Below are positions 33 through 39,232 of a stretch of 42,817 nucleotides of DNA, one piece after another. The notes under the pieces were generated by a model, which saw only the letters and a list, made by a program, of their open reading frames with translations, did no database searches and was not told the DNA's origin. Every line of letters starts with the position of its first letter. The stretch's first letter is position 1. Location: positions 15,917-58,733 of the forward strand of contig CAYWVJ010000001.1 of assembly GCA_964461825.1 (NCBI GenBank). The letters run 5' to 3'. The stretch comes from an uncultured Gammaproteobacteria bacterium. Lineage in GTDB: Bacteria; Patescibacteriota; Microgenomatia; UBA10105; UBA927. The translations under genes and the position numbers were made by a program.

Positions 33-2204
33 TTACAAAGGTAGCATTGCATAGCGAACGGTTATTCGGTGCGTTCCTTTGGGAACGACGAAACCGATAA
101 AGAGATAATCAACCCTTCGTACGGCTATTCGTTTTCCATCAATTTCCACTTTCCAGTTCGGATCGAAGGAGTTGGAAACAACGACGAACCTGTCCTCGCG
201 AAGAGTCGCCGTCGCCGTAAGCGAATCGCCGGTGTATGACGTGATGCGTATTGTCTCGTCCGGCCCAAACGCGCTTCCGTTCAGAGTAAACCCGTCCTCG
301 GCAAGCGCCGTTTCCCGCGGCTGGAATTTTTTGTCGTACAGAACGTTGAACAGTTCCTGTTTCGACGATACGGACCGGACAGACGCAACGGCCCACATGC
401 GGGGCAGCGCTTTTTTATAAAAATATATCCGGGTATTCCCTTCCCGGTACATGAGTTCCAGATTCGGATTTTTGACGTCGTCGAGCGCCGCGACGTACGT
501 CACGTTGAGCAGCGGCAGGAGCGGCGAATCCACGTTGGATAGCGTGATAATTCTGTTAAATCCGAACGGCGGCGTGATGTTCGGCTCGTTCCGGTTGACG
601 GCCGCAATAAATTCCTCATACCGCGCGTCATACACCGGGTCATACCCTTCCGGCGTTTCTATGCCGTAATATGCAGTCACGTCCGGCGGCAGCGCGCGGT
701 TATCCAGACTCATCACGCGGAACGGTTTTTGCTGGCTCTGCAAAAATGATATCGCCTGCGTCGCGGGAAAAAAATATTCCCGCGGCGTAAACGGCGTAAA
801 TTTCCAGCCGAAACGGAAGAGGTCAAACGCGACGAACCCGAATACGCCGACCAGCCAGACGGTTTTCCACTGTTTCGGTGACAGCGCGGCAACTATGGCG
901 CCGCCGGCAAGCAACATGCCCGGCAATACGAGATTTCGCCGCGCAACGGGATTGTCAGTCGTCCAGAGCGCGGCAAGGACAACGGCCAGCGCGGCAAAAA
1001 TGACGAATATTTTTTTGGACGGGTTGCGCACGAACGCGTCAACGCCCAGCGCCGCAAGAACCGCAAGACTGAAATCGACGAGCACCATAAGCCTCGTCGG
1101 CTGCAACGCCGACCAGTACGGGATCCGCCACACGTACGGCAGTCTGGCAATCGGCGTGGGCAGAAGGAAAAGAAATACGATACCCAGCCAGACGCCGAAA
1201 AATCTCGTCAAACGGTCTTTGCGCGCGATAAGCGCATACGCGCCGAAGATGAGCGGCAGTACGCCGACATAGCCGATAAATTCTCCGTAATTCCATACGC
1301 CCCAGTAATTCAGCGTTGCGGGATTGCCGAAAAAATCGGGAGCGATAAACTGCGCAAGATGCTGCCACGGCAGAAACCAGCCGTCGCGGGTCCACGCGGC
1401 AGCGTCCCCCAGCCGCGCGCTGCGGCCGAGAAACTGCAGCATCGGCACCCACTCAAGCGACGTAGCGATACCGGCGGCGAGCCCCGCAGCAACCAACTGC
1501 CACGAAAACCGAAGCGCCGCGTATGCTGCGGCAAAAATGAATGTGTACAGTGCAACCTGCGCGTGTCCGGCGAAAAAGGCAAAACTCAGCGACAGCGCAA
1601 GCAGTACCGACCAGCGGAATTTCCGGTCCGTTTCGGCAACCTTATCGATGCAAAGGAGAATGAGCGGAAGCCACAGCGCGGTCTGCACGATCGTTCCCCA
1701 CGTGAGCCACGCGACGGAAAATCCGCTGAAGGCCCACGTAATGCCTCCGATTGCGGAACTCCACGGCGACAGTTTTTTGTTCCTGAGAAACAGGAAAAGG
1801 AACAGCCCGGCAAGCACCGGCTGCAGGATGATAAGCCACGTCCACGCCGCAGAAAACGGGAAAACGAAAAACAGGACGTTCAAAGGATACAGCCATCCCG
1901 CCTGAATGTTCGCAAGAAGCGGCGTTCCGGAAAAATTGTACGGATTCCACAGCGGCATGCTCCCCTGTTTTACGGAATCAATGACGAGTTTCCGCCACGG
2001 AATCTGCTGGCGAATCGGGTCCGTGATCAGAAAATTTTTGAACGGTACGCCGGCCGGATAGTCTTTTGCCGCTGCATCAAGCCACGGATGGTACAGTCCG
2101 ATGAGCGTATCCGTCGGCACCGGCAGCAGCCCTTTCGTGAACGTCTGGTAAAAAAATGCAAGAGACGCGGCAATCAAAACCAAAAGTGCTAAATATTTTT
2201 TCAT
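33..2204 (-). CDS. YfhO-family polytopic membrane glycosyltransferase (GT-C-like), paralog 1
   Basis: 723-aa multi-TM ORF. It has an N-terminal loop 'DPIRQQIPWRKL', a central 'FIAPDFFGNP' and a C-terminal module 'DPNWKVEIDGK...VPKGTHRITVRY'. These are shared with the ORFs at 4525-6720 and 39909-42266. The ATG at 2204 forms an ATGA overlap with the upstream stop. Confidence 0.8.
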   Translation of the reverse strand: MKKYLALLVLIAASLAFFYQTFTKGLLPVPTDTLIGLYHPWLDAAAKDYPAGVPFKNFLITDPIRQQIPWRKLVIDSVKQGSMPLWNPYNFSGTPLLANIQAGWLYPLNVLFFVFPFSAAWTWLIILQPVLAGLFLFLFLRNKKLSPWSSAIGGITWAFSGFSVAWLTWGTIVQTALWLPLILLCIDKVAETDRKFRWSVLLALSLSFAFFAGHAQVALYTFIFAAAYAALRFSWQLVAAGLAAGIATSLEWVPMLQFLGRSARLGDAAAWTRDGWFLPWQHLAQFIAPDFFGNPATLNYWGVWNYGEFIGYVGVLPLIFGAYALIARKDRLTRFFGVWLGIVFLFLLPTPIARLPYVWRIPYWSALQPTRLMVLVDFSLAVLAALGVDAFVRNPSKKIFVIFAALAVVLAALWTTDNPVARRNLVLPGMLLAGGAIVAALSPKQWKTVWLVGVFGFVAFDLFRFGWKFTPFTPREYFFPATQAISFLQSQQKPFRVMSLDNRALPPDVTAYYGIETPEGYDPVYDARYEEFIAAVNRNEPNITPPFGFNRIITLSNVDSPLLPLLNVTYVAALDDVKNPNLELMYREGNTRIYFYKKALPRMWAVASVRSVSSKQELFNVLYDKKFQPRETALAEDGFTLNGSAFGPDETIRITSYTGDSLTATATLREDRFVVVSNSFDPNWKVEIDGKRIAVRRVDYLFIGFVVPKGTHRITVRYAMLPL

Positions 2205-3202
2205 GCCGTTATGCGGGTAAGCAGCGCGTCATATGCACCGGTAAATCGTCCGACGCCGAAATTTTTTGCCCGTTCCTGAACGTTTTTAACCATTCCCGTT
2301 TTTTGCGTTGCCTTCTTTGTTTTTTCAATAAGCTCCGTAACGCCCGCCCAGAGGTACCCGCTTTCGCCTTCGCGCACGATTTCCGGCAAACCGCCGCCCG
2401 CAAAAACGATCGGAATGCAGCCGGCAGACATCGCCTCCACGGTCGAAATGCCGAAATGCTCCATATTTTCCGGCTTGGTTTCGTGATATCCTGCCGCGTG
2501 CCAGTAAATTTTTGCCTGTCTGTACAGCGCGGCGATTTCATCAAACGCACAATTGGCTACTATCCGCACCGGAAGTTTACCGGCGGCAGACCGAAGTTTT
2601 GCAGCATACGCGGTATCTGCCGGCATCAGTCCGCCTGCCAGCACGAGCTCATAGCCGGAAAAATTTCCCCGGCGGAATGCTTCGATAAGCACGTCCTGCT
2701 TTTTCAAAGGGTGAAAACGGCCGACCGAAAGAATGACGTTTTTTTTGTTTGATTTTTCCGTAATCGGTACGACCGGCGGATAAATGACGGTTGAGGGAAT
2801 CGTAAGATTTCTTTGCGTAAACTCTGAATTAGACACGATTGCGTTGTACCGGGCCAGCTTAACGGAATGCGTTCGGATAGTCTGAAACGGAACCTGAAAA
2901 TGGAGGATGTTATACCGCGCAAACGTCGTGGGGATGCTTCCGTCGCTCAGGAAAAAAATCAGGTCGTACTTTCGCGAAACGAATAACTTCCGAAAAATAT
3001 TTTTCGTTTGAAATACGTTTTCAACGGTCCGTATTTTTGAAAGACCGATGCCCAGTCTTTTTTCCGCCTTTTCAACGATCGCCGGATCGTCCCAAAATAA
3101 CGACACGTCGTGTTTTTTTGACCAGTGCGATGCCAGCGTCAGGGTATACCGCTCCCCGCCGGACAGCGAATCAAAATACGGATTATAGAAACCGATTTTC
3201 AT
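2201..3202 (-). CDS. GT4-family (GT-B fold) glycosyltransferase
   Basis: 333 aa. The C-terminal 'EHFGISTVEAMSAGCIPIV' matches the E-x7-E retaining-GT signature region. Confidence 0.8.
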   Translation of the reverse strand: MKIGFYNPYFDSLSGGERYTLTLASHWSKKHDVSLFWDDPAIVEKAEKRLGIGLSKIRTVENVFQTKNIFRKLFVSRKYDLIFFLSDGSIPTTFARYNILHFQVPFQTIRTHSVKLARYNAIVSNSEFTQRNLTIPSTVIYPPVVPITEKSNKKNVILSVGRFHPLKKQDVLIEAFRRGNFSGYELVLAGGLMPADTAYAAKLRSAAGKLPVRIVANCAFDEIAALYRQAKIYWHAAGYHETKPENMEHFGISTVEAMSAGCIPIVFAGGGLPEIVREGESGYLWAGVTELIEKTKKATQKTGMVKNVQERAKNFGVGRFTGAYDALLTRITA

Positions 3203-3226
3203 GATTTGACTTTTTCAATACACGAT

Positions 3227-3232
3227 ATTATA
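3227..3232 (-). promoter_or_regulatory. Candidate -10 box (TATAAT) upstream of the GT4 gene
   Basis: The minus strand reads TATAAT 24 nt upstream of the ATG at 3202, in a 58-bp spacer created by the low-GC islet. No convincing -35 was found. Confidence 0.3.
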
Positions 3233-3260
3233 ATGGTTTTATCACGATGACTGGATAGGC

Positions 3261-3788
3261 CTAAGGTTTCGACCGACCGCCGATGCCAGTCACTTGTTTT
3301 TTAAGCGTCTTTACGAGTTCTAAACTTCCTCGTAATTTATCTACTCTCACAATAAACCGTGAGAACGGTTTTAATAATCTTGAATAGTATTTGTTTGGTG
3401 CCATCATTAAAAGCAGCTTCTCTTTTTCTGCAAGATATTCAACTAAACAACGGAAATCTCCGTCTCCTGAAACGATAATTGCCTTATCATAATTTCCGTA
3501 TTCAATCATGCAGTGCAACACCAATTCTGCATCGACATTACCTTTTACCTTACCGTCCGGCAGCTCCAGTGTCGGTTTCCAGATAACAATATACCCACAT
3601 TCCTGCAACCGTTTATAAAGTAATTCGTTCCCAGCAACGTACCCGATAAATAAAAATGCTTTCTCAATCTTATATTTGTTCCGAAGATACTGTCTGAATT
3701 TCCGCCAGTCCAGCCGCCAACCCAGCGATTTAATGCCGAGGTTTAAATTCTGACTGTCGATAAATGCGTAGTTACTGCGTTTTTTCAT
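3261..3788 (-). CDS. NYN-domain (LabA/DUF88-like, PIN-fold) predicted ribonuclease
   Basis: 175 aa. Motifs: 'YAFIDSQNLNLG', 'KGNVDAELVL' and 'IIVSGDGDF', the acidic residues of the NYN fold. A 60-nt hand sample is about 35% GC against about 55% in flanking genes. Confidence 0.75.
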   Translation of the reverse strand: MKKRSNYAFIDSQNLNLGIKSLGWRLDWRKFRQYLRNKYKIEKAFLFIGYVAGNELLYKRLQECGYIVIWKPTLELPDGKVKGNVDAELVLHCMIEYGNYDKAIIVSGDGDFRCLVEYLAEKEKLLLMMAPNKYYSRLLKPFSRFIVRVDKLRGSLELVKTLKKQVTGIGGRSKP

Positions 3789-3801
3789 AATTCTTCATTT
3801 A

Positions 3802-3810
3802 ATAGTACCA
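3802..3810 (-). promoter_or_regulatory. Candidate extended -10 promoter (TGgTACTAT) for the NYN gene
   Basis: The minus strand reads acgTGgTACTAT, ending 13 nt before the ATG at 3788. This implies a very short leader. Confidence 0.35.
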
Positions 3811-3824
3811 CGTTTTTCCCAATA

Positions 3825-3887
3825 CAAAACCCCCCGTCATCAAAATTGCGCTTTTTAAAGCAACAACTCCGAATCGGAGGGGTTTTG
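3825..3887 (-). terminator. Nested hairpins downstream of the 4-TM gene; possible intrinsic terminator
   Basis: On the minus strand, CAAAACCCC (3887-3879) pairs with GGGGTTTTG (3833-3825). An inner CTCCG-ATT-CGGAG hairpin (3879-3867) is followed by UUGUUGCUUU. The stems are short, so the terminator call is tentative. Confidence 0.3.
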
Positions 3888-3897
3888 CACGTACAGT

Positions 3898-4311
3898 TTA
3901 CTCGGTTTCAATTGCAGGTCTGGCGGTATGCCGAACAAGATAAAGGACGGCGGCACGCGCGTTTATCAGTATAGCAAAACTGAAGAGGAACATCGCGACG
4001 TTAACATCCGTACCCTTGCCGATTTCCATAAGCCACCATGTAAACAACACAACTGCGTTCAAAGCAAACACGGGCAAACCGTAAAGTAGGTTTTTCTTCG
4101 TTCGCTCTTCCGCAATTGTATATGCGAATGCCAGAATGCCAAATCCAATCAGCGTTACGGAAACTAACCAGTCTATGACTGGATAATTCCATAATGTAGG
4201 TGAGATAAGGTCAATCGGCATCGAAATGCCCGACCAGAACGTCCACATCCAGACCGAAAGGGACGCGCCGAGCAACGTGAACAGAACACTCCAACTAAAA
4301 ATCTTTTTCAT
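3898..4311 (-). CDS. Small 4-TM membrane protein, unknown function
   Basis: 137 aa with four hydrophobic segments. A strong RBS (gcaaaGGAGGctcaaATG) precedes the ATG at 4311. GC is intermediate (about 43% in a hand sample). Confidence 0.6.
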   Translation of the reverse strand: MKKIFSWSVLFTLLGASLSVWMWTFWSGISMPIDLISPTLWNYPVIDWLVSVTLIGFGILAFAYTIAEERTKKNLLYGLPVFALNAVVLFTWWLMEIGKGTDVNVAMFLFSFAILINARAAVLYLVRHTARPAIETE

Positions 4312-4346
4312 TTGAGCCTCCTTTGCTCATTTTCTGAACTTACGAA

Positions 4347-4396
4347 TGGATGGGGATTGAAAACGATGTTTCTTTTTTCGTGCTCAATGCCATCCA
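4347..4396. other. Imperfect long hairpin inside the 213-bp non-coding spacer
   Basis: TGGATGG (4347-4353) pairs with CCATCCA (4390-4396). ATTGA (4356-4360) pairs with TCAAT (4384-4388). The loop is 23 nt and there are small bulges. Confidence 0.3.
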
Positions 4397-4509
4397 CTCG
4401 CCGGAGACTCTATCCGCAACTGTAAACGTGCAATAAACGCGGTAAGGCACAACTATAAGCTTCGCATAAGAAGCTAAAGTATGCGCTTACAGACCCAGAA
4501 GTCTATCAA

Positions 4510-4524
4510 AAGAAGAAGAAGAAG
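4510..4524. repeat. (AAG)5 microsatellite abutting the YfhO-2 stop codon
   Basis: Five perfect AAG units are read directly at 4510-4524. Confidence 0.9.
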
Positions 4525-6720: not shown

Positions 6721-7436
6721 AGTTTTGCGTACGTCACGAACATGCTGAATGCCTGATACATGCTTTCGATCCAGCCGACCGTACCGGCGCGCAGCCCCCG
6801 CTGATCAATATACGACCGGAAAAATCCGGTACCCATGACGCGCAGGAGCCGCCACCAGCTGACGTGCGGGTGGTGCGCGTTAAGCCGCAGCTCCGCTTCG
6901 ACCACAGACCAATCGTTGGTTTTGGCAAGCATCTCCTCAAGCGACCGGTGCGTCCGGTGGATCATCGCGTGCGCAAGCATACCGCTTACCCCTTCGTAGA
7001 CCGGCGTCTCGTGCAGTCTTCCGTGCCAACCCTTGAGCGCTTTTTTCAAAAACAAACGCTCGACCATGTCTTTATACGGCCAATGATGTCCCAAAAAGTA
7101 GGTATCCCGTTTGATAAAATATGCGTTTGCCTTCGGGCGGCGGATGGTTTTTTTGATTTCCGCTGCGAGTGGCCCGGTAATTGTTTCATCCGCATCGACG
7201 TAAAGAACCCAAGCGCCCGTTGCGTGCGACAGCCCCAGTTCCCGCACCGCGGCAAAATCCTTCTGCACTGCCCCGATGACGCTCGCGCCGTATTTTGCCG
7301 CAATGTCGCGGGTCTTATCCGCTGAACCGTTGTCAACGAGAATAATTTCATCCACCCACGTCAGGTGTTTGAGGCAGTTGCCGATTCTCGCTTCTTCGTT
7401 TTTTGCAATGATAACTGCGCTTATCGCCGTTTTCAT
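6687..7436 (-). CDS. GT2-family glycosyltransferase (paralog of 8322-9221)
   Basis: 'AVIIAKNEE', 'ILVDNGSADKT' and 'YVDADE' form a GT-A DxD signature. The start is moved to the ATG at 7436 (MKTAIS), which avoids overlap with the gene ending at 7447. The C-terminal 'YAKLWEMQ' is shared with the ORF at 8322-9221. Confidence 0.8.
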   Translation of the reverse strand: MKTAISAVIIAKNEEARIGNCLKHLTWVDEIILVDNGSADKTRDIAAKYGASVIGAVQKDFAAVRELGLSHATGAWVLYVDADETITGPLAAEIKKTIRRPKANAYFIKRDTYFLGHHWPYKDMVERLFLKKALKGWHGRLHETPVYEGVSGMLAHAMIHRTHRSLEEMLAKTNDWSVVEAELRLNAHHPHVSWWRLLRVMGTGFFRSYIDQRGLRAGTVGWIESMYQAFSMFVTYAKLWEMQEKKVGR

Positions 7437-7446
7437 AATGAAAATT

Positions 7447-15973: not shown

Positions 15974-15996
15974 GCTCTTCAATTATATCCGAAGCC

Positions 15997-16347: not shown

Positions 16348-16355
16348 TACATCCA

Positions 16356-20728: not shown

Positions 20729-20744
20729 TGTCTGCGACGACGGA

Positions 20745-21701
20745 TTATACGCGGCCTCTCCAGTAATTGAGAAGATCCTCCATCGTCTTTTCAAACGGGA
20801 TAGACGGTTTCCAGCCGGTTTGTGCCACAAATTTGGCGTTGTCTCCCAACAGTACCGGCACGTCGGACGGCCGCATGCGTGCGGGATCCTCTTTTATTTC
20901 CACCTTCGCTTTGGAAAACGTCAAAAGAAGTTTCAGCATGTCGCCGATTTTTATCGTTTTGCCGCTGCTGATATTGTAGACTTCACCGGGATCGCATTTT
21001 TCCACCGCGACCAGATAGCCTTTCACCATGTCCCGCACGTCCGTATAATCGCGGGACGCCTCAAGATTTCCGACGTGAATGACCGGATCCTGTTTCCCTT
21101 TTTCGATAAGTGCAATCTGTTTTGCGAAATTAGATTCCGCAAACGTGTCGCCGCGCCGCGGACCGGTATGATTGAATCCGCGCGTCCGGATGATGCGGAC
21201 CTTGTATGACTGGTAGTACTGATATCCCAGATAATCCATCGCGAGTTTCGACACCGCGTACGGCGAAAGCGGCCGAAGCGGGTTTGTTTCCTTTATCGGG
21301 AGCTCGTTTTCATGAACCAGCCCGTACTCTTCGCTCGAACACGCGATCTGGATGACCGGATCAATGCCGGACATGCGTACCGCCTCAAACAAATTCGCAC
21401 TTCCCACGATATTTACCTCAAGCGTTACCGACGGCGATACCCATGAGGTCGGGACAAACGATTGCGCTGCCAGATGGAAAATGTAATCGGGTTTCAACCG
21501 CGATACCATCGTGTACAGACTGTGGGTATCCATGAGGTCAGCATCCTCGAGATGAAGTTTCGTAATTATGGGTTCGATGTAGTCGGTTTTGCTTCTGGGG
21601 CGTACTAATCCGTACACCTCAAACCCGCTGGAAAGCAAAAGTTCCGCAAGATGACTCCCCACGAATCCTGCAATCCCGGTGATAAGTGCTTTTTTTGCCA
21701 T
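20745..21701 (-). CDS. NDP-sugar 4,6-dehydratase/reductase of the extended SDR family (GDP-mannose 4,6-dehydratase-like)
   Basis: 'ALITGIAGFVGSHL' Rossmann motif, 'YAVSKLAMD' (YxxxK) and 'RGFNHTGPRRGDTF'. The ATG at 21701 has a GGAGG RBS. Confidence 0.72.
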   Translation of the reverse strand: MAKKALITGIAGFVGSHLAELLLSSGFEVYGLVRPRSKTDYIEPIITKLHLEDADLMDTHSLYTMVSRLKPDYIFHLAAQSFVPTSWVSPSVTLEVNIVGSANLFEAVRMSGIDPVIQIACSSEEYGLVHENELPIKETNPLRPLSPYAVSKLAMDYLGYQYYQSYKVRIIRTRGFNHTGPRRGDTFAESNFAKQIALIEKGKQDPVIHVGNLEASRDYTDVRDMVKGYLVAVEKCDPGEVYNISSGKTIKIGDMLKLLLTFSKAKVEIKEDPARMRPSDVPVLLGDNAKFVAQTGWKPSIPFEKTMEDLLNYWRGRV

Positions 21702-21720
21702 TGTGCCTCCGTTCATTGTA

Positions 21721-23016
21721 TCACATTCTCCCCACGCCGTAATAGACGTATCCAAGCTCTTTTACCTGTAACGGTTCATATATATTTCGTCCGTCGAAAA
21801 GCACGCGATCGTTAAGATTCTTTGCGAGCCGCACGAGATCGAGCTGGCGGAATTCGTTCCATTCGGTCACGACCGCCACCGCATCGGCTCCTTTCGCCGC
21901 GGCGTACGGATCTTTTGCGAACCGAACCGACGGCGGAAGCAGCGTTTTTGCGTTATCCATCGCGACGGGATCGTATACCGCGATTGCCGCGCCGGCGCCG
22001 AGGAGCTCGCGGATGATAAACAGGGAAGGCGCTTCCCGCATGTCGTCGGTATTGGGCTTAAACGAAAGTCCAAGGACGGCGATCGTTTTCCCGCGCAGAG
22101 ACGAAAAATGACGCATGATTTTTTTCACGAAATTCCGTGCCGCTTCCGTATTGATCTCGTCGACTGCTTTGAGCAGTTTGAAGTCGTAGCCGTGCTGGCC
22201 CGCAATCGTAACGAGCGCTTTTACGTCTTTGGGGAAACAGCTGCCGCCGTATCCGACGCCGGGATACAGAAAGCTTCTGCCAAGCCGTTTATCCAATCCG
22301 ACCGCCGAAAGAACCAGTTCCGCATCCGCACCGACGTTTTCCGAAAGCATCGCGATGGCATTGGCAAACGAAATCTTCGTGGATAACAGGGCATTCGAGG
22401 CATATTTAATGAGTTCTGCGGTTTCAAGATTACAAAGAATGGTTTTTCCGTTGATCGGTTTGTGCAGTTCCAGAAGAAGTTCCTGCGCGCGGTGCGAGGT
22501 AGTCCCGATGACGACGCGGTCCGGGTGCATCGTGTCGTTGATAGCCGAGCCTTCGCGCAAAAATTCGGGGACCGAGGCAATCGCAAACGACGTTCCGTCG
22601 GGCTTTTCGTTGGCAATGCGCTCGCCGATCATTTTATTCGTACCGGGGGGGACTGTACTTTTGGTCACGACGACCTTGTATCCGATGAGCGACTTTGCAA
22701 TGCCCGATGCAGCTTCCCAGACGCTTGTCAGATCTGCTTCGCCGTTTTTCTTAGCCGGCGTGCCAACGCAGATGAAAACGATTTCCGACGGAGAAATCGC
22801 CTCGCGGTAATCGAGCGTAAATTTGAGCCTGCCCGCTTCGCTGTTGCGGTTCACGAGTTCCGCAAGTCCGGGTTCAAAAAACGGAACGATGCCCCGCTTC
22901 AGCTTTTGTATCTTTTCCGGCGTACGGCCGGCCACCCACACGGTATTCCCCAGATCCGCAAATACCGCTGCGGTAACCAACCCCACGTACCCGTGACCGA
23001 TGAACGCAATCGTCAT
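21721..23016 (-). CDS. ugd: UDP-glucose 6-dehydrogenase
   Basis: 'IAFIGHGYVGLVTAAVFA' NAD-binding motif and the catalytic 'GGSCFPKDV'. The 431-aa length is typical. Confidence 0.9.
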   Translation of the reverse strand: MTIAFIGHGYVGLVTAAVFADLGNTVWVAGRTPEKIQKLKRGIVPFFEPGLAELVNRNSEAGRLKFTLDYREAISPSEIVFICVGTPAKKNGEADLTSVWEAASGIAKSLIGYKVVVTKSTVPPGTNKMIGERIANEKPDGTSFAIASVPEFLREGSAINDTMHPDRVVIGTTSHRAQELLLELHKPINGKTILCNLETAELIKYASNALLSTKISFANAIAMLSENVGADAELVLSAVGLDKRLGRSFLYPGVGYGGSCFPKDVKALVTIAGQHGYDFKLLKAVDEINTEAARNFVKKIMRHFSSLRGKTIAVLGLSFKPNTDDMREAPSLFIIRELLGAGAAIAVYDPVAMDNAKTLLPPSVRFAKDPYAAAKGADAVAVVTEWNEFRQLDLVRLAKNLNDRVLFDGRNIYEPLQVKELGYVYYGVGRM

Positions 23017-23867
23017 TGTTCCTGCTCCTTAACCAGCGCTATCCCTTCGCCAAACGCGTGCATGCGAACTCCGAGCGCAGTAATTTTGCCGTTATCAAGG
23101 GCTGCGTACTGCGGCACCGGCGCACGGTTGGCAAACATTTCGCGAAACGGTATTTCCTGCACAAGACTTCTATCATACCCAAACGTGTCCGCAATTGCCA
23201 CACCCGCGTCAAACGGCGAAATCGGGCTGGAAACCGCGTGATAAATCCCGCTTGCATCGTTTGCGATAAGTACGCGGATGACTTCGGCAATATCGTCGAT
23301 GAACGTCGGCGAAAATATCTGATCTTTGGCGCACGTAATCGGCGTACCGGCGGACAGCCGCTCGAGCATTTTGTGGACCCAGTCTTTCTTTCCGATCGGA
23401 TGGGCGCGGTAGGGATTGGAAATGCGAATCACCAGCCCCTGTTCGCCAAGCGCCAGTACCCTTTTTGCCCCTTCAGTTTTCGTTTTTGCGTACCAAGAGA
23501 GCGGACTGGCAGGATCGTCTTCGGAATAACGATATCCCTTCTTTTTTCCGTCAAAGGCATAATCCGTATCGACGTACAGAAGTTTCTTGCCTGATTTTCT
23601 GCACTCATCCGCAATGTGTTCCGTTGCCAGTACGTTTACGTTCCACGGCGTATCGTGATCGGACTGCGCGCCCTGTACGTTGGTGTACGCAGCCATATGA
23701 AATACCCACGGCGCGTCGGATTTTGCCAACCGTTCGGCAACCGCCGAAGCATTGGTAATGTCCACGCCGGTCTCGAGACTCAAATTCTCAAATGAAAACC
23801 CGCGGGCAAGAAGTTCCACGACCCGCGATCCCACGAGACCTGATAATCCGGTTCCTATGACGTTCAT
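23013..23867 (-). CDS. rmlD: dTDP-4-dehydrorhamnose reductase-like SDR
   Basis: 'IGTGLSGLVGSRV', 'SWYAKTK' (YxxxK), and its position after rmlB in the rml operon. The ATG at 23867 gives an ATGA overlap. Confidence 0.72.
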   Translation of the reverse strand: MNVIGTGLSGLVGSRVVELLARGFSFENLSLETGVDITNASAVAERLAKSDAPWVFHMAAYTNVQGAQSDHDTPWNVNVLATEHIADECRKSGKKLLYVDTDYAFDGKKKGYRYSEDDPASPLSWYAKTKTEGAKRVLALGEQGLVIRISNPYRAHPIGKKDWVHKMLERLSAGTPITCAKDQIFSPTFIDDIAEVIRVLIANDASGIYHAVSSPISPFDAGVAIADTFGYDRSLVQEIPFREMFANRAPVPQYAALDNGKITALGVRMHAFGEGIALVKEQEQ

Positions 23868-24871
23868 CCGTACTGTTTTCTGTAATACTCCTGATACGCA
23901 CCGGTTTTGACGTCGCGCCACCATTTACCGTTTGTTTTATACCACTCGACGGTTCTTACCAGCCATTCCTCAAAATCATGCTCCGGTTTCCAGCCCGTCT
24001 CGGCATGAATCTTCGTCCAGTCCATCGCATACCGCCGGTCATGGCCCGGCCTGTCTTTGACAAATTCTATTGACGATTCGTCCTTTTGCATCAGTTTGAG
24101 AATCATGCGTACAACCTCAAGATTGCTGATATCGCGGGTCATGCCGCCGATGCAATACGTTTCGCCGGTCCTGCCGCGGCTAAGCACCGCATCAATCGCG
24201 CGGCAGTGATCTTCCACGTACAGCCAGTCGCGGACGTTTTTGCCGTCGCCGTACACCGGCACCTTTTTCCCCTCCAGAATATTCGTGATGGCAAGCGGAA
24301 TAAATTTTTCGGGGAACTGATACGGGCCGAAATTATTCGAACAGTTCGTAATCGTAACCGGCAGTCCGTACGTATGATAGTATGCCCGAACTAAATGATC
24401 TGATGCTGCTTTACTTGCTGAATACGGACTTCTGGGATCATATGGTGTTCGTTCACTAAACTTACCCGAACTTCCGAGCTCGAGTGATCCGAACACCTCA
24501 TCCGTCGAAACGTGATGAAACCGCGAGACCTTAGCCGTCAACGCAGCATCCAAAAGTACCTGCGTACCGACGACATTCGTTTTTATAAACGGCGCGGGAT
24601 CGTGGATCGAGCGGTCAACGTGACTTTCCGCCGCAAAATGCACGACAACGTCAACGCCCTGCATTACGCGACCGACTGCTTGGGAATCGCAGATGTCTCC
24701 CTGAACGAACGAGTAACGGGGATTTTTTTCTGCTGACGCAAGATTTTCGAGATTGCCGGCATAGGTCAGTTTGTCGAAATTGATAACCTCGTCACCCGCA
24801 TGGTTGGCAAGCCAGTACAGAATAAAGTTTGCGCCGATAAATCCCGCCCCGCCGGTAACCAGAAGCTTCAT
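23864..24871 (-). CDS. rmlB: dTDP-glucose 4,6-dehydratase
   Basis: 'LLVTGGAGFIGANF', 'HVSTDEVFG' and 'YSASKAASDHLVRAY...NCSNNFGPYQFPEK' are highly characteristic. Confidence 0.93.
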   Translation of the reverse strand: MKLLVTGGAGFIGANFILYWLANHAGDEVINFDKLTYAGNLENLASAEKNPRYSFVQGDICDSQAVGRVMQGVDVVVHFAAESHVDRSIHDPAPFIKTNVVGTQVLLDAALTAKVSRFHHVSTDEVFGSLELGSSGKFSERTPYDPRSPYSASKAASDHLVRAYYHTYGLPVTITNCSNNFGPYQFPEKFIPLAITNILEGKKVPVYGDGKNVRDWLYVEDHCRAIDAVLSRGRTGETYCIGGMTRDISNLEVVRMILKLMQKDESSIEFVKDRPGHDRRYAMDWTKIHAETGWKPEHDFEEWLVRTVEWYKTNGKWWRDVKTGAYQEYYRKQYG

Positions 24872-25344
24872 GTGATGTTTTTGTTTGAAATGGGTACTCC
24901 CTGCACCCAGTCGTAGCCGATACGCGGATCGTTGTAGGAAATCCGCCCTTCCTCCTCCTTCGTGTAGATGCCGCTGGTTACGTACACCAGGTCGGCCGGC
25001 CCGGTAAGGACCTTCAGTCCGTGCGCGACTCCCGCGGGTATTTTTATTATCACGTTGTCGGGTTCGTCCGAAGACAGCGTAAATTCATTCAGCTGTTTAT
25101 ACGTCGCCGACGTTTCGCGAAGATCATATAACGCCGCTTTTATTTTCCCCCGTACGACGTACCACCAGTCAATCTGCGTTGTATGAACGTGCCAAGCCTT
25201 CACGACGTTGTCGACCATAAATGAATGGGATATCTGGCCGAACCCCTCGTTGAAAAAATCATCGGTGGCACGAATCATCTCCTCGAAATATCCCCGTTCG
25301 TCAGGGTGGCGCACTAATGGTTTGACTGCAACGCCGTTTATCAT
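24868..25344 (-). CDS. rmlC: dTDP-4-dehydrorhamnose 3,5-epimerase (short cupin form)
   Basis: 158-aa cupin: 'RHPDERGYFEE', 'KAWHVHTTQIDWWYVVRG' and 'IPAGVAHG'. It sits between rmlA and rmlB. Confidence 0.8.
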   Translation of the reverse strand: MINGVAVKPLVRHPDERGYFEEMIRATDDFFNEGFGQISHSFMVDNVVKAWHVHTTQIDWWYVVRGKIKAALYDLRETSATYKQLNEFTLSSDEPDNVIIKIPAGVAHGLKVLTGPADLVYVTSGIYTKEEEGRISYNDPRIGYDWVQGVPISNKNIT

Positions 25345-26078
25345 AGTTTGCCCTCGATGACAAAGCGCGATACGTCGTTGTTGGCACGCAAAAGTTCATC
25401 GAACGACGTGCCTGCGTCGATCCACCAATCGATGACGTCGCAGGTCAGATTGCCGGAACGAAGATAGCAATTGTTGAGGTCGGTTACTTCGAGTTCCTGC
25501 CGTTTTGACGGTTTGAGCGTCCTGATGTAATCAAACACGTTTGCGTCGTACATGTAAACGCCGATCTGCGCAATGTCGCTTTTCGGGCGTTCGGGTTTCT
25601 CTTCGATAGACAGCACCTTCCCGCGTTTATCTATTTCAATAACCCCGTACTGGCGCGATTTTGTGTCCAGATGCACACCGAATACCTTTGCTCCTTTCTT
25701 TGTTTTTTCAAACTCGGCAACGGACGCCGCCAGATCGAAATTAAATATGTTGTCGCCCAAAATAACGAGAATCGGCTCGTCGTGGGCGAACTTTTCCGCA
25801 AGAGCAATCGCGTCGGCAATCCCGCCTTTGGGATTTTTCTGAACTGCATAGTAGAGCGACAGCCCGAACTCCGATCCGTCGTGGAGAAGGTTCGTAAAAT
25901 GCCCCGCGTGATCCGGAGAACTCGTCAGCAGCACTTCATTCACACCCGCTTTTGCCATCGCCTCCAGCGGAAAATATACCATGGGCTTGTTATAAATCGG
26001 CAGCAGATGTTTATTGGTAACCAGCGTCAGCGGACGAAGTCTTGACGCAAGTCCTCCTGCAGGAATGACACCTTTCAT
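25341..26078 (-). CDS. rmlA: Glucose-1-phosphate thymidylyltransferase-like sugar nucleotidyltransferase (short form)
   Basis: 'GVIPAGGLASRLRPLT' and 'ILGDNIF'. The ATG at 26078 is preceded by aaaGGAGGttt. It is the first gene of the rml block. Confidence 0.8.
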   Translation of the reverse strand: MKGVIPAGGLASRLRPLTLVTNKHLLPIYNKPMVYFPLEAMAKAGVNEVLLTSSPDHAGHFTNLLHDGSEFGLSLYYAVQKNPKGGIADAIALAEKFAHDEPILVILGDNIFNFDLAASVAEFEKTKKGAKVFGVHLDTKSRQYGVIEIDKRGKVLSIEEKPERPKSDIAQIGVYMYDANVFDYIRTLKPSKRQELEVTDLNNCYLRSGNLTCDVIDWWIDAGTSFDELLRANNDVSRFVIEGKL

Positions 26079-26088
26079 GAAACCTCCT

Positions 26089-29952: not shown

Positions 29953-29960
29953 ATATATAT

Positions 29961-31127: not shown

Positions 31128-31132
31128 GCATG

Positions 31133-34222: not shown

Positions 34223-34224
34223 AC

Positions 34225-39191: not shown

Positions 39192-39232
39192 GTTTGTATT
39201 GTAAGACGGCCGGCCGGTCTAACACAAGTGTT

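What the first reader, a model, noticed from the sequence alone, without database searches (positions are those of the whole stretch)
33..26078. About 26-kb co-directional surface-glycan supercluster with an exceptional density of GT-C-type extracytoplasmic transferases
Twenty-four back-to-back minus-strand genes make up the cluster.
- Sugar activation: rmlACBD (dTDP-Rha), ugd (UDP-GlcA) and a Gmd-like SDR (6-deoxyhexose).
- Cytoplasmic transferases: three GT2 and one GT4.
- One Wzx-like flippase.
- Three Dpm1/GtrB-type Pol-P-sugar synthases.
- Seven polytopic GT-C-like proteins: two YfhO, two divergent YfhO-like, two ArnT/PMT-like and one DUF2029-like. An eighth, YfhO-3, lies at 39909-42266.

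In known systems (CsbB/GtcA/YfhO on teichoic acids, GtrABV on O-antigen, ArnT on lipid A, PMTs on proteins) one GT-C adds one decoration outside the membrane. Eight in 43 kb implies either a very elaborate multi-branch polymer or wide protein O-glycosylation.

I recognised no priming phosphoglycosyltransferase (WecA/WbaP type), Wzy polymerase, chain-length regulator or ABC exporter. The acceptor molecule is therefore not evident from the window.
Basis: partly seen in the sequence, partly recalled or inferred. Interest (0 to 1): 0.7.

Follow-up and report, generated by a model that had tools for sequence, protein, structure and literature searches.

The report
Conserved CPR operon packed with GT-C glycosyltransferases
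A tiny-genome Candidate Phyla Radiation bacterium (Gottesmanbacteria) devotes about 26 kb to an operon with seven membrane-embedded outside-acting sugar transferases, and dozens of related species keep it gene-for-gene, so it probably builds a core envelope glycan not described in any paper the literature searches found.

Summary
Window 33-26120 holds 24 back-to-back minus-strand ORFs. Twenty-one are glycan genes: rmlACBD, ugd, an Rmd-like GDP-sugar SDR, three GT2, one GT4, a Wzx-type flippase, three polyprenyl-phosphate-sugar synthases and seven GT-C transferases. An eighth GT-C lies at 39909-42266. The other three ORFs are low-GC inserts: an NYN-domain protein, a 4-TM protein and a coiled-coil protein.

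All four sub-threshold GT-C candidates hold up. Two AlphaFold models hit almost only solved GT-C enzymes among their confident matches. Orthologues or profile comparisons support the other two. Every family keeps acidic residues in the loop after TM1.

The cluster is not a chimera. It comes from a Gottesmanbacteria genome (CPR, Microgenomates). The same 14-17-gene order recurs in at least 40 species-level genomes at 37-88% amino-acid identity, including closed chromosomes of about 1 Mb. In relatives, five or six further GT-C genes follow beyond the window's left edge.

No priming phosphoglycosyltransferase, Wzy, chain-length regulator, ABC exporter or LCP ligase was found.

The best reading is a vertically inherited envelope-glycan assembly line. 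A lipid-linked primer is made inside the cell and flipped by Wzx. GT-Cs then extend and branch it outside, using three polyprenyl-phosphate sugars. The logic resembles mycobacterial LM/LAM. The acceptor is unknown. I rate it a new variant of a known kind.

The parts
25341..26120 (-). rmlA, glucose-1-phosphate thymidylyltransferase. The likely true start is 26078. First gene of the operon.
   Evidence: Pfam NTP_transferase, E 3.3e-55, with the match starting at residue 16 of the ORF. A terminator-like hairpin at 26294-26277 (-) lies upstream, after the CAP-domain gene.
24868..25344 (-). rmlC, dTDP-4-dehydrorhamnose 3,5-epimerase.
   Evidence: Pfam dTDP_sugar_isom, E 2.7e-26.
23864..24871 (-). 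rmlB, dTDP-glucose 4,6-dehydratase.
   Evidence: Pfam GDP_Man_Dehyd E 2.5e-88 and Epimerase E 3e-69. The rmlB assignment rests on its position among the rml genes.
23013..23924 (-). rmlD, dTDP-4-dehydrorhamnose reductase.
   Evidence: Pfam RmlD_sub_bind, E 1.9e-53. The orthologue sits at the same place in L001 and L003.
21721..23016 (-). ugd, UDP-glucose 6-dehydrogenase, which makes UDP-GlcA.
   Evidence: All three UDPG_MGDP_dh domains match, E 6e-59, 5e-35 and 1e-33. Orthologues are 66-80% identical.
20745..21755 (-). Rmd-like GDP-sugar SDR of the GDP-6-deoxyhexose pathway. The likely true start is near 21701.
   Evidence: Best PDB matches are 2pk3, GDP-6-deoxy-D-lyxo-4-hexulose reductase (E 1e-80); 7us5 (E 2e-67); and 6x3b (E 3e-54). 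NCBIfam gmd scores 177 bits, far below its 415-bit cutoff.
19607..20830 (-). PPS1, a polyprenyl-phosphate-sugar synthase (GT2) fused to a C-terminal GtrA-type flippase domain. The likely true start is 20728.
   Evidence: Pfam Glycos_transf_2 E 4.7e-24 and GtrA_DPMS_TM E 4.8e-15. Best NCBIfam hits are ArnC and AglJ. DAD motif at residue 129.
18183..19730 (-). PMT-a, a GT-C transferase of the PMT_2 (GT39/GT83-like) type. The likely true start is 19586.
   Evidence: The window copy hits PMT_2 at E 4.7e-5, below the gathering score. All 15 of 15 orthologues hit PMT_2, best E 8.7e-14. The 'FLGDEGRD' motif after TM1 is invariant in alignment A4 and >=95% conserved in the wider set. hhalign to PMT-b gives 95% probability.
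17443..18186 (-). PPS2, a short soluble-type polyprenyl-phosphate-sugar synthase (GT2, 247 aa).
   Evidence: Pfam GT2, E 3.5e-27. Best PDB hits are DPMS 5mlz, ArnC 9bhc/8vxh and GtrB 5ekp. Best NCBIfam hits are PgfS and Dol-P hexose transferase. DDGS and DLD motifs are present.
16356..17513 (-). GT87-like (DUF2029/MptA-B-like) GT-C transferase. The likely true start is 17468.
   Evidence: The window copy hits GT87 at E 6.4e-5, below the gathering score. Nine of 17 orthologues hit GT87. The orthologues in L001 and L003 carry precomputed MptA_B_family and GT87 hits. Nine KD hydrophobic segments. D42 and D118 are invariant.
15997..16347 (-). Small coiled-coil ORF of about 116 aa. It is a low-GC insert and not a glycan gene.
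   Evidence: GC 0.35 and GC3 0.26. Among relatives it is found only in L009. No significant Pfam or PHROG family.
14498..15982 (-). PMT-b, a GT-C transferase of the PMT_2 type.
   Evidence: Pfam PMT_2, E 3.3e-14, above the gathering score. The 'FTDEAIY' DE motif after TM1 is invariant in alignment A5 and 96% conserved in the wider set.
12981..14597 (-). GTC-Y, a divergent YfhO-superfamily GT-C. The annotated product is 506 aa, starting at 14501.
   Evidence: AlphaFold model: pLDDT 83.6, pTM 0.84. Foldseek top hits are STT3, AglB, ALG12 and AftD, at probability 1.00. hhalign to YfhO2 gives 99.3% over the full length. The 'SDDG' loop is invariant.
11371..13020 (-). GTC-P, a divergent YfhO/PTPS_related-type GT-C. 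The annotated product is 533 aa, starting at 12972.
   Evidence: AlphaFold model: pLDDT 79.3, pTM 0.85. Foldseek top hits are AglB 3waj, STT3, ArnT 5f15 and AftD 6w98. hhalign to GTC-Y gives 100%, E 6e-78. The 'MHDD' motif is invariant.
10653..11405 (-). PPS3, a short soluble-type polyprenyl-phosphate-sugar synthase (GT2, 250 aa). It is a candidate alternative primer.
   Evidence: Pfam GT2, E 8.9e-19. Best NCBIfam hits are PgfS, ArnC, Dol-P hexose transferase, PpgS and AglJ. It belongs to the most widely kept submodule, GTC-P-PPS3-Wzx-GT2c-GT2b-GT2a.
9218..10714 (-). Wzx-type MOP flippase.
   Evidence: Pfam Polysacc_synt_3 E 1.9e-50 and Polysacc_synt E 2.2e-20. Twelve KD hydrophobic segments. 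NCBIfam MOP flippase, E 5.8e-35.
6687..9221 (-). GT2a (6687-7490), GT2b (7447-8349) and GT2c (8322-9221), cytoplasmic GT-A glycosyltransferases. GT2b resembles rhamnosyltransferases.
   Evidence: Pfam Glycos_transf_2, E 8e-18, 9e-14 and 3.8e-22. GT2b hits TIGR01556 rhamnosyltransferase at E 4.4e-17, below its cutoff. Unlike PPS1-3, none has a Pol-P-sugar synthase as its best hit.
4525..6720 (-). YfhO2, a YfhO-family GT-C.
   Evidence: Pfam YfhO, E 2e-18. Ten KD hydrophobic segments. D60 ('MPD') is invariant in alignment A3 and 96% conserved in the wider set.
3203..4524 (-). Low-GC insert carrying an NYN-domain gene (3261-3788) and a 137-aa 4-TM protein (3898-4311). Not part of the conserved cluster.
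   Evidence: GC 0.42 across the stretch. NYN Pfam hit, E 3.5e-13. The 4-TM protein has no family hit. Both are absent from all 85 related loci searched.
2201..3202 (-). GT4 (GT-B) cytoplasmic glycosyltransferase.
   Evidence: Pfam Glycos_transf_1, E 2.6e-24. Orthologues sit between YfhO2 and YfhO1 in relatives.
33..2204 (-). YfhO1, a YfhO-family GT-C. It is the last cluster gene inside the window.
   Evidence: Pfam YfhO, E 2.5e-23. D32 and D62 are invariant and D43 is 98% conserved. In relatives it is followed by five or six more GT-C genes.
39909..42266 (+). YfhO3, an orphan YfhO-family GT-C outside the operon, next to two DsbA-like genes.
   Evidence: Pfam YfhO, E 3.8e-16. It is 27-31% identical to YfhO1 and YfhO2, with the 'TD' Asp aligned. 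No orthologue was found in the fetched loci, only paralogue-level hits.

Best explanation
The cluster is the conserved, vertically inherited core of an envelope-glycan assembly line of Gottesmanbacteria and related Microgenomates (CPR/Patescibacteria). Steps are marked as shown or inferred.

1. Shown at family level: RmlABCD, Ugd and an Rmd-like SDR supply dTDP-L-rhamnose, UDP-glucuronate and a GDP-6-deoxyhexose.
2. Inferred: GT2a, GT2b, GT2c and GT4 build a short lipid-linked oligosaccharide on the cytoplasmic face. The primer enzyme is either encoded elsewhere or is PPS3.
3. Family shown, substrate inferred: the Wzx-type flippase moves the lipid-linked intermediate to the outer face.
4. Family shown, sugars unknown: three Dpm1/GtrB/ArnC-type GT2 enzymes (PPS1-3) charge polyprenyl phosphate with three monosaccharides. 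PPS1 carries its own fused GtrA-type flippase domain.
5. Fold and catalytic loop shown, chemistry inferred: seven GT-C transferases use these lipid-phosphate sugars outside the membrane to elongate and branch the glycan. Five belong to the YfhO superfamily, two are PMT_2-like and one is GT87/MptA-B-like. Each is kept as a 1:1 orthologue across species.

Because chain growth happens outside through GT-Cs, no Wzy polymerase, chain-length regulator or ABC exporter is needed. This is the logic of mycobacterial lipomannan, LAM and arabinogalactan. The final acceptor is not identified. A cell-wall or membrane-anchored polymer seems more likely than proteins.
For: - Gene inventory.
- GT-C fold of the two 'no-Pfam' proteins.
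- Paralogy network: YfhO1/2/3 100%; GTC-P~GTC-Y 100%; GTC-Y~YfhO2 99.3%; PMT-a~PMT-b 95%.
- Conserved (>=95%) acidic residues just after TM1 in all seven cluster families, with K/R-rich cytoplasmic N-termini.
- PPS1-3 have Pol-P-sugar synthases as best hits, whereas GT2a-c do not.
- The full 14-gene order PPS1 to GT4 is kept in 40 of 80 species-level genome loci. The block PMT-a to GTC-P, with its five GT-Cs, is kept in 49, and the GTC-P to GT2a core in 61. Amino-acid identity falls in parallel across genes, from 88% to 37%.
- The same order occurs in closed chromosomes of 0.995 and 1.09 Mb.
- Start and stop codons of adjacent genes overlap, for example PMT-b and GTC-Y by 4 nt, as expected for an operon.
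- GT87-like orthologues carry precomputed MptA_B_family hits, which is the mycobacterial mannan-polymerising GT-C family.
- The C-terminal beta-sandwich domains of GTC-P and GTC-Y match glycoside-hydrolase beta-domains. This is a weak hint of glycan binding.
- No PGT, Wzy, PCP, ABC exporter or LCP was found in the window or the relatives' flanks.
Against: - No biochemical data exist for any member.
- The donor sugars, the acceptor and the elongating versus decorating role of each GT-C are all inferred.
- Four window GT-Cs fall below Pfam gathering scores.
- Profiles of four families found no solved structure by sequence, so they are remote from every characterised GT-C.
- An Rmd-like reductase without a recognisable Gmd leaves the GDP-sugar branch incomplete.
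- A priming enzyme and a ligase could sit elsewhere in the genome, which could not be scanned.
- PMT_2-type enzymes include true protein O-mannosyltransferases, so protein acceptors are not excluded.
Confidence: 0.6

Rival explanations
1. This is a decoration model. A backbone polymer, such as a rhamnan-like secondary cell-wall polysaccharide, is made by GT2a-c and GT4 and exported through Wzx. The seven GT-Cs each add only a single side-chain sugar, as CsbB/GtcA/YfhO do on teichoic acids and GacI/K/L do on the streptococcal rhamnan.
For: All characterised bacterial YfhO and PMT_2-type GT-Cs in Firmicutes add single sugars to existing polymers (PMC8035078; PMC5836110). The rml genes, a rhamnosyltransferase-like GT2b and a Wzx-type protein next to a Pol-P-sugar synthase mirror the GacI/GacK/GacL arrangement. 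PPS1 fused to GtrA and followed by PMT-a is a textbook three-component unit.
Against: Seven or more conserved decorating enzymes fed by only three donors would be unprecedented. A backbone polymer would need a polymerase or an ABC exporter, and neither is present. Decoration genes are normally strain-variable, but these are fixed 1:1 orthologues in a fixed order across at least 40 species. The GT87/MptA_B-like member belongs to a family that includes chain-elongating enzymes.
Confidence: 0.2
2. This is a protein glycosylation machine for S-layer, pilin or other surface proteins. A lipid-linked oligosaccharide is assembled, flipped by Wzx and transferred to proteins by a GT-C. Further sugars are then added outside. 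In the archaeal Agl-like version, PPS3 primes directly on polyprenyl monophosphate, which would explain the missing phosphoglycosyltransferase.
For: - PMT_2 is the protein O-mannosyltransferase family.
- NCBIfam hits of PPS1-3 include AglJ, Dol-P hexose transferase, AglG and the streptococcal protein-glycosylation enzyme PgfS.
- The Wzx protein hits the 'O-glycosylation flippase' model at E 5.6e-32.
- The top fold matches of GTC-P and GTC-Y are oligosaccharyltransferases.
- PPS3-Wzx-GT2c-GT2b-GT2a is the most widely conserved submodule.
Against: No GT-C here has the WWDxG motif that defines STT3/AglB/PglB oligosaccharyltransferases. The OST fold matches have modest TM-scores (0.37-0.45) and reflect the shared GT-C core, since AftD, ArnT and ALG enzymes score equally well. 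One or two transferases suffice for general protein glycosylation, so seven fixed ones argue for a defined polymer. All NCBIfam hits are far below their equivalog cutoffs. No target protein is encoded in the cluster.
Confidence: 0.15
3. This is an artefact or an accessory island: an assembly chimera, or a horizontally acquired hypervariable surface-polysaccharide island with recently duplicated, possibly decaying GT-C paralogues.
For: Three low-GC ORFs interrupt the cluster. Four GT-Cs score below Pfam gathering thresholds in the window copy.
Against: - The order is collinear in at least 40 species-level genomes and in closed chromosomes.
- GC and GC3 are uniform across the cluster and the flanking housekeeping genes.
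- All proteins looked up map to a single 67.8-kb NCBI contig, and one junction was reassembled independently in Logan.
- The paralogues are anciently diverged, at 25-34% identity.
- Each paralogue has its own conserved orthologue set with intact catalytic motifs.
- No frameshifts or internal stops were seen.
Confidence: 0.02

Closest known systems
Multi-component (three-component) transmembrane glycosylation systems: CsbB/GtcA/YfhO, GtlA/GtlB, GtrA/B/V, GacI/J/K/L, CsdAB/CD/EF with CflA
   Same: Both have a GT2 polyprenyl-phosphate-sugar synthase, a GtrA-type or Wzx-type flippase, and a YfhO or PMT_2-type GT-C acting outside the membrane (PMC8035078, PMC5836110). PPS1 fused to GtrA and followed by PMT-a is exactly such a unit.
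   Different: Known genomes hold 1-3 scattered GT-A/GT-C pairs that decorate LTA, WTA or a rhamnan. Here three synthases serve seven GT-Cs in one operon, with more downstream in relatives. The order is fixed across a whole CPR lineage, and no teichoic-acid or backbone machinery is in sight. GtrA is fused to the synthase. Two of the GT-C families had no usable Pfam assignment.
Mycobacterial and corynebacterial lipomannan, LAM and arabinogalactan assembly: Ppm1 or PpgS plus MptA/B/C, PimE, EmbA/B/C and AftA-D
   Same: Both have many GT-C enzymes using polyprenyl-phosphate sugars to elongate and branch a glycan outside the membrane, with no Wzy or ABC exporter for that part. Both use short TM-less Pol-P-sugar synthases. 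A GT87/MptA_B-type member is present. AftD is among the best structural matches for GTC-P and GTC-Y. The comparison of pathway logic rests on my own knowledge of the mycobacterial system.
   Different: There is no sequence-level orthology (profiles found no PDB relatives). No PimA/PimB, decaprenyl-phosphoarabinose pathway or Emb-type C-terminal domains are present. The YfhO superfamily dominates instead of the GT53, GT85 and GT89 families. The organism is a CPR bacterium with a genome of about 1 Mb.
Archaeal Agl N-glycosylation (Haloferax AglJ/G/I/E, AglR, AglB, AglD/AglS)
   Same: Both combine Dpm1-like GT2 enzymes, further GT2s, a Wzx/MOP-type flippase and GT-C enzymes, with no WecA or WbaP-type primer. 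PPS1-3 hit the AglJ, AglG and Dol-P hexose transferase models weakly. The description of the Agl pathway rests on my own knowledge.
   Different: No AglB/STT3-type oligosaccharyltransferase is present, because the WWDxG motif is absent from all eight GT-Cs. All hits are far below the equivalog cutoffs.
Rhamnose-rich cell-wall polysaccharide clusters of streptococci, lactococci and enterococci (gac, rgp, cwps, epa)
   Same: Both combine rml genes, GT2 and GT4 transferases, a Wzx-type protein and GT-C side-chain transferases in one large conserved locus (PMC9574508, PMC10821137).
   Different: No RgpCD/GacDE-type ABC exporter, GacO/TagO primer, GacH-type glycerol-phosphate transferase or LCP ligase was found. 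This locus has far more GT-Cs.

Membership tests
GT-C glycosyltransferase superfamily (all eight polytopic proteins) | Polytopic membrane protein with eight or more TM helices in an N-terminal core | tested here: met
   Six to ten Kyte-Doolittle segments per protein, which is a crude undercount. The AlphaFold models of GTC-P and GTC-Y show 12-13 long helices and a C-terminal beta-domain followed by a final TM helix.
GT-C glycosyltransferase superfamily (all eight polytopic proteins) | Conserved acidic residue(s) in the first extracytoplasmic loop after TM1 | tested here: met
   At least 95% acidic conservation across orthologues: YfhO1 D32, D43, D62; YfhO2 D60; GTC-P D43 D44; GTC-Y DD; PMT-a D73 E74; PMT-b D34 E35; GT87-like D42. 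One Asp is aligned in YfhO3. K/R-rich N-termini imply that the loop lies outside.
GT-C glycosyltransferase superfamily (all eight polytopic proteins) | Three-dimensional fold matches solved GT-C enzymes | tested here: inconclusive
   Met for GTC-P and GTC-Y. Their Foldseek top hits are GT-C enzymes at probability 1.00, with TM-scores of 0.37-0.47. For them only Pfam and hhalign evidence exists.
YfhO family (Pfam PF09586) | Score above the Pfam gathering threshold | tested here: met
   YfhO1 scores 82.8 bits, YfhO2 66.6 and YfhO3 59.1, against a cutoff of 28.5. GTC-Y scores 19.5 bits and does not pass. GTC-P and GTC-Y count as superfamily relatives only, by hhalign at 96-99%.
Characterised YfhO function (GlcNAc transfer from C55-P-GlcNAc to LTA or WTA) | Partner CsbB-type synthase, GtcA flippase and a teichoic-acid acceptor | not testable with these tools
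   Pol-P-sugar synthases and a GtrA domain are present. No teichoic-acid genes are in the window. Donor and acceptor chemistry need experiments.
PMT_2 / GT39-GT83-like (ArnT, PMT) | Pfam PMT_2 hit and an Asp-Glu motif in loop 1 | tested here: met
   PMT-b scores 53.9 bits against a cutoff of 26.1. The window copy of PMT-a scores 24.1 bits, just under the cutoff, but 15 of 15 orthologues match, best E 8.7e-14. The DE motif is conserved in both. Profiles found no ArnT or Pmt1/2 by sequence, so these are distant members.
GT87 / MptA-B-type polyprenyl-P-mannose mannosyltransferases | Pfam GT87 or MptA_B_family hit above threshold | tested here: inconclusive
   The window copy scores 23.3 bits against a cutoff of 25. 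Nine of 17 orthologues match GT87 at E <= 1e-3, best 1.8e-7. Precomputed MptA_B_family and GT87 hits exist for the L001 and L003 orthologues. The profile found no PDB relative by sequence.
STT3/AglB/PglB oligosaccharyltransferases | WWDxG motif in the C-terminal domain | tested here: not met
   No WWD[YWFN]G or W[WY]DxG motif occurs in any of the eight proteins. The fold similarity is to the shared GT-C core only.
Polyprenyl-phosphate glycosyltransferases (Dpm1/GtrB/ArnC/PpgS-type GT2) | GT-A fold with a DxD motif, and closest characterised relatives that are Pol-P-sugar synthases | tested here: met
   Pfam GT2 hits, E 1e-18 to 4e-27. DxD motifs are present. The best PDB hits of PPS2 are DPMS, ArnC and GtrB. 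The best NCBIfam hits of all three are PgfS, ArnC, Dol-P hexose transferase, PpgS and AglJ, unlike GT2a-c. All are below the equivalog cutoffs, so sugar specificity is unknown.
Wzx/Wzy-dependent polysaccharide pathway | Priming phosphoglycosyltransferase, Wzx, Wzy polymerase and PCP chain-length regulator | tested here: not met
   Only Wzx is present. No Bac_transf, Glycos_transf_4, Wzy_C or Wzz hit occurs in any window ORF of 100 aa or more that lies in the gene run, or in the precomputed Pfam lists for the relatives' flanks. The rest of the genome could not be scanned.
ABC-transporter-dependent polysaccharide pathway | Wzm/Wzt (TagGH/RgpCD)-type exporter in the cluster | tested here: not met
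   The only ABC systems in the window are FtsEX and a ZnuABC-type importer, both outside the cluster.
dTDP-L-rhamnose pathway | All four enzymes RmlA, RmlB, RmlC and RmlD | tested here: met
   Four adjacent genes carry the four Pfam families, E 3e-55, 2.5e-88, 2.7e-26 and 1.9e-53.

The most novel reading that the evidence does not exclude
Microgenomates build their main envelope glycan by a route not known in bacteria. A Dpm1-like GT2 (PPS3) primes on polyprenyl monophosphate, as in euryarchaeal Agl pathways. The Wzx-type protein flips the intermediate. A battery of YfhO-superfamily, PMT_2 and GT87-like GT-Cs then takes over every extracytoplasmic job: polymerisation, branching and ligation. 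In other bacteria those jobs fall to a phosphoglycosyltransferase, Wzy, WaaL/LCP and ABC exporters. The product would be a lineage-defining polymer of these ultra-small episymbionts and possibly their host-contact surface.
Probability: 0.2. Interest if true: 0.85.

Novelty: new variant of a known kind. Interest (0 to 1): 0.62.

Why it matters
CPR/Patescibacteria make up a large share of bacterial diversity and live with genomes of about 1 Mb. [quoted passage not shown]

This locus shows that one major CPR class spends roughly 2.5-4% of such a genome on a single glycan operon, my estimate from a 26-kb core plus the downstream extension in chromosomes of about 1.0-1.2 Mb. The operon is dominated by outside-acting GT-C enzymes and its order is frozen across dozens of species. 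That pattern points to an essential structural polymer rather than a variable antigen.

It gives concrete, testable handles:
- three Pol-P-sugar synthases to assay;
- seven orthologous GT-C families with identified catalytic loops;
- predicted sugars (Rha, GlcA, a 6-deoxyhexose) to look for in enrichments.

It also supplies two sizeable GT-C families that lack usable Pfam coverage (about 2500 and 1250 homologues in the searched candidate sets) but now have confident fold assignments.

My library searches for CPR plus YfhO, Patescibacteria plus GT-C, and Gottesmanbacteria plus glycosyltransferase found no prior description.

Tried and rejected
- **Source contig.** Exact look-ups of window proteins (Ugd, P0001) in the contig index found nothing. 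Only a 3.3-kb Logan contig carries P0121. The source is an NCBI contig of 67,804 bp, but its record name could not be retrieved.
- **Profile searches against PDB sequences.** Profiles of YfhO2, PMT-a, PMT-b and GT87-like orthologue alignments gave no hit even at E <= 1. They are therefore too remote from ArnT, Pmt1/2, PimE and the rest for sequence methods.
- **OST hypothesis.** No WWDxG motif was found, so I rejected membership of STT3/AglB/PglB.
- **The 4-TM, 137-aa ORF as a GtrA or SMR-type flippase.** It has no Pfam, NCBIfam or PHROG hit even at E <= 10, and no homologue in relatives. I treat it as an insert of unknown function.
- **ORF 15997-16656 as a frameshifted C-terminus of the GT87-like gene.** I rejected this. 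The GT87-like ORF ends cleanly at 16356. The downstream ORF is a low-GC coiled-coil protein that starts near 16347.
- **SDR next to ugd as a UDP-xylose synthase or UDP-GlcA epimerase.** I rejected this. The best matches are GDP-sugar Rmd and Gmd enzymes.
- **tRNA and Rfam scans.** Nothing was found in the window.
- **Promoter and terminator scans.** They were uninformative except for one terminator-like hairpin upstream of rmlA.
- **Right-hand housekeeping genes in related loci.** A tblastn search found none, because the fetched flanks are too short. Synteny across the junction between cluster and housekeeping genes could not be tested.
- **Assembly chimera and hypervariable island.** Both rejected (see the rival explanations).

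Full report
**1. What is in the window**

The ORF list and Pfam scans of every sizeable ORF confirm 24 contiguous minus-strand ORFs between 33 and 26120. In transcription order they are:

| Gene | Coordinates | Note |
|---|---|---|
| rmlA | 25341-26078/26120 | |
| rmlC | 24868-25344 | |
| rmlB | 23864-24871 | |
| rmlD | 23013-23924 | |
| ugd | 21721-23016 | |
| SDR | 20745-21755 | |
| PPS1 | 19607-20830 | GT2 with a fused GtrA domain |
| PMT-a | 18183-19730 | PMT_2-like polytopic protein |
| PPS2 | 17443-18186 | 247-aa GT2 |
| GT87-like | 16356-17513 | polytopic |
| coiled-coil ORF | about 15997-16347 | |
| PMT-b | 14498-15982 | second PMT_2 protein |
| GTC-Y | 12981-14597 | polytopic, only sub-threshold Pfam hit |
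| GTC-P | 11371-13020 | polytopic, only sub-threshold Pfam hit |
| PPS3 | 10653-11405 | 250-aa GT2 |
| Wzx | 9218-10714 | Wzx-type flippase |
| GT2c, GT2b, GT2a | 8322-9221, 7447-8349, 6687-7490 | |
| YfhO2 | 4525-6720 | |
| 4-TM ORF | 3898-4311 | |
| NYN-domain ORF | 3261-3788 | |
| GT4 | 2201-3202 | |
| YfhO1 | 33-2204 | |

A third YfhO gene lies at 39909-42266 on the plus strand.

The rest of the window (26.3-42.8 kb) holds housekeeping genes. These include a CAP-domain protein, Sua5, TsaE, a CBM_4_9 protein, a PcsB-like M23 peptidase, FtsEX, RF2, a ZnuABC-type transporter, Fur, RuvC and two DsbA-like proteins. Almost all are also on the minus strand. Co-directionality is therefore a feature of the region, not of the cluster.

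**2. Three ORFs are foreign**

The NYN gene, the 4-TM ORF and the coiled-coil ORF have GC of 0.40, 0.46 and 0.35, against about 0.50-0.55 for their neighbours. They are absent from related loci; only the coiled-coil ORF recurs, in L009. The cluster proper therefore has 21 genes. The 300-nt overlap between ORF 15997-16656 and the GT87-like gene comes from the longest-ORF convention and is not a frameshift.

**3. Are the polytopic proteins GT-C enzymes?**

- YfhO1, YfhO2, YfhO3 and PMT-b pass the Pfam gathering scores.
- For GTC-P and GTC-Y I collected homologues (2512 and 1245 proteins at E <= 1e-5) and aligned them (A1, A2).
- Their AlphaFold2 models have pLDDT 79.3 and 83.6, and pTM 0.85 and 0.84.
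- In Foldseek searches of the PDB, nearly all confident matches are GT-C enzymes. They include AglB 3waj/7e9s, STT3 8pn9/8age/6s7t, ArnT 5f15/5ezm, AftD 6w98/6wbx (TMq 0.45-0.47), AftA, EmbA/B, ALG9/ALG12, PglB and Pmt1. The only other probability-1.00 matches are short local alignments (about 80 columns) to GH30 beta-domains, which correspond to the C-terminal beta-sandwich.
- Profile-profile comparison of orthologue alignments gave these probabilities: YfhO1/2/3, 100%; GTC-P to GTC-Y, 100% (E 6e-78); GTC-Y to YfhO2, 99.3% over the full length; GTC-P to YfhO2, 96%; PMT-a to PMT-b, 95%.
- PMT-a orthologues hit PMT_2 in 15 of 15 cases, and GT87-like orthologues hit GT87 in 9 of 17. The latter also carry precomputed MptA_B_family hits.
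- Every family keeps conserved (>=95%) acidic residues a few residues after TM1: MHDD, SDDG, FLGDEGRD, FTDEAIY, YTQVDL, ITD/MPD.
- All eight proteins have K/R-rich N-termini, which places that loop outside the membrane.
- None carries the WWDxG motif of oligosaccharyltransferases.
- Sequence profiles of four families found no solved structure at all. These are therefore remote GT-C lineages.

**4. The soluble enzymes**

- The SDR is closest to GDP-6-deoxy-D-lyxo-4-hexulose reductase (Rmd, 2pk3, E 1e-80) and to other GDP-sugar dehydratases and reductases. It belongs to a GDP-6-deoxyhexose branch, but no separate Gmd is visible.
- PPS1-3 have Pol-P-sugar synthases as their best characterised relatives. 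These are DPMS 5mlz, ArnC and GtrB in the PDB, and PgfS, ArnC, Dol-P hexose transferase, PpgS and AglJ in NCBIfam.
- GT2a-c do not show this pattern. GT2b resembles rhamnosyltransferases.
- All of these hits are below the equivalog cutoffs, so sugar specificities are unknown.

**5. Provenance and conservation**

All named homologues come from Patescibacteria, mostly Candidatus Gottesmanbacteria. All window proteins I looked up lie on one NCBI contig of 67,804 bp. The PMT-b/GTC-Y/GTC-P junction was assembled independently in a Logan contig.

Relatives at 58-63% identity carry the identical gene order, on contigs of 0.5-1.09 Mb.

A scan of one genome per species returned 80 loci. By tblastn:

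- 40 keep the full 14-gene order from PPS1 to GT4.
- 49 keep the block PMT-a to GTC-P, which holds five GT-Cs.
- 61 keep GTC-P-PPS3-Wzx-GT2c-GT2b-GT2a.

Most of the remaining loci are cut by contig ends. Per-gene identities decline in parallel, from 88% to 37%.

Levybacteria, Woesebacteria and Shapirobacteria keep partial or rearranged versions. Many record titles read 'uncultured Gammaproteobacteria', yet those contigs hold the same CPR cluster. I treat those titles as mislabels; this is an inference.

The paralogues within the window are only 25-34% identical. The duplications are therefore ancient.

**6. The cluster continues beyond the window**

In the closed 1.09-Mb chromosome OY970230.1, YfhO1 is followed by these genes:

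- PMT_2 (430 aa)
- GT2
- PMT_2 (540 aa)
- a 574-aa polytopic PMT-like protein
- PMT (574 aa)
- YfhO (844 aa)
- YfhO (802 aa)

A second genome (L088) has a different set of five or six polytopic genes there, at least four of them GT-C, plus a methyltransferase. The overall picture is a frozen core plus a variable GT-C-rich extension, with at least 12-13 GT-Cs in about 32 kb. Neither flank shows a phosphoglycosyltransferase, Wzy, PCP, ABC exporter or LCP.

**7. Interpretation**

Known bacterial GT-A/flippase/GT-C systems occur as 1-3 scattered pairs per genome and add single sugars to teichoic acids or rhamnans (PMC8035078, PMC5836110). This locus differs in four ways:

- It has three donors and seven transferases in one operon.
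- Every GT-C has strict 1:1 orthology across species.
- It contains a GT87/MptA-B-type member.
- It has no polymerase or exporter.

Together these fit best with extracytoplasmic elongation and branching of a defined polymer, the logic of mycobacterial LM/LAM/AG. Under this reading, the GT2a-c/GT4/Wzx module supplies a flipped lipid-linked primer.

Two alternatives remain open. One is pure decoration of an unseen backbone. The other is protein glycosylation, possibly with Agl-like priming on polyprenyl monophosphate by PPS3. Both are less consistent with the conservation pattern and with the missing OST motif. The acceptor is still unknown.

**8. Novelty**

Library searches for CPR plus YfhO, Patescibacteria plus GT-C, and Gottesmanbacteria plus glycosyltransferase found no description of this locus. 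There are only generic remarks on dolichol-phosphate mannosyltransferases or GT87 in other CPR lineages (PMC6031116, PMC4736985). One paper states that the structure of the CPR envelope is unclear (PMC5220378).

All the components belong to known kinds. What is new is the architecture, the density, the phyletic fixation and the host lineage. My verdict is a new variant of a known kind, with an interest score of about 0.6.

Noticed in passing
window 3203-4524: A low-GC stretch (0.42) sits between GT4 and YfhO2. It holds an NYN-domain gene (3261-3788; GC 0.40) and a 137-aa 4-TM ORF (3898-4311) with no family hit. Both are absent from all related loci, so it looks like a small recent insertion. 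Seven terminator-like hairpins occur in 3100-4700, against 1.7 expected.
   Followed up: partly
window 15997-16347: A very AT-rich coiled-coil ORF of 116 aa (GC 0.35, GC3 0.26) is wedged between the GT87-like and PMT-b genes. A 55%-identical stretch of 51 aligned residues lies at L009:6790-6942, which by its coordinates is the corresponding place. No other relative has it. Its function is unknown.
   Followed up: partly
L087:12245-22262 and L088:12324-22268: In relatives, the region just downstream of YfhO1, beyond the window's left end, carries five or six more GT-C genes of the PMT_2, PMT and YfhO types. It also carries a GT2 and, in one genome, a methyltransferase. The arrangement differs between genomes.
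   Followed up: yes
window 33-37939: Practically every gene over about 38 kb is on the minus strand, and GC skew is negative throughout (cumulative -2.4). This is a strong strand bias that is not specific to the glycan cluster.
   Followed up: no
window 33212-34237: The RF2 (prfB) ORF is continuous. The PCRF domain matches from residue 28, and no CTTTGA programmed-frameshift site lies within about 180 nt upstream of its start. This RF2 therefore appears to lack the usual autoregulatory +1 frameshift.
   Followed up: partly
window 38445-40090 and PMT-a C-terminal domain: Two adjacent DsbA-like thioredoxin-fold genes lie next to the orphan YfhO3. The extracytoplasmic C-terminal domain of PMT-a has invariant cysteines (C423 and C428 in alignment A4). 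This hints at disulfide-dependent folding of envelope enzymes.
   Followed up: no
loci L006, L011-L013, L015 and others: Many MAG contigs titled 'uncultured Gammaproteobacteria bacterium' or 'Pseudomonadales', and one titled 'Bacteroidia', carry the collinear Gottesmanbacteria-type cluster. One protein, P0133, is labelled Parcubacteria. These are probably taxonomic mislabels or mis-binned contigs in public records.
   Followed up: no
window 29104-31412: A CBM_4_9 carbohydrate-binding protein (29104-30237) lies directly beside a PcsB-like coiled-coil/M23 peptidase and FtsEX. This is a cell-wall hydrolase control module, and it implies that the organism has peptidoglycan.
   Followed up: no
models mc8e4ee1a3bb2 and m48c006bf0dd0 (GTC-P residues about 445-515; GTC-Y residues about 395-472): Both divergent GT-Cs end in an eight- to nine-strand beta-sandwich followed by a final TM helix. 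The beta-sandwich alone matches the beta-domains of GH30 and GH127 glycoside hydrolases at probability 1.00 over about 80 residues. It may be a glycan-binding acceptor module.
   Followed up: no
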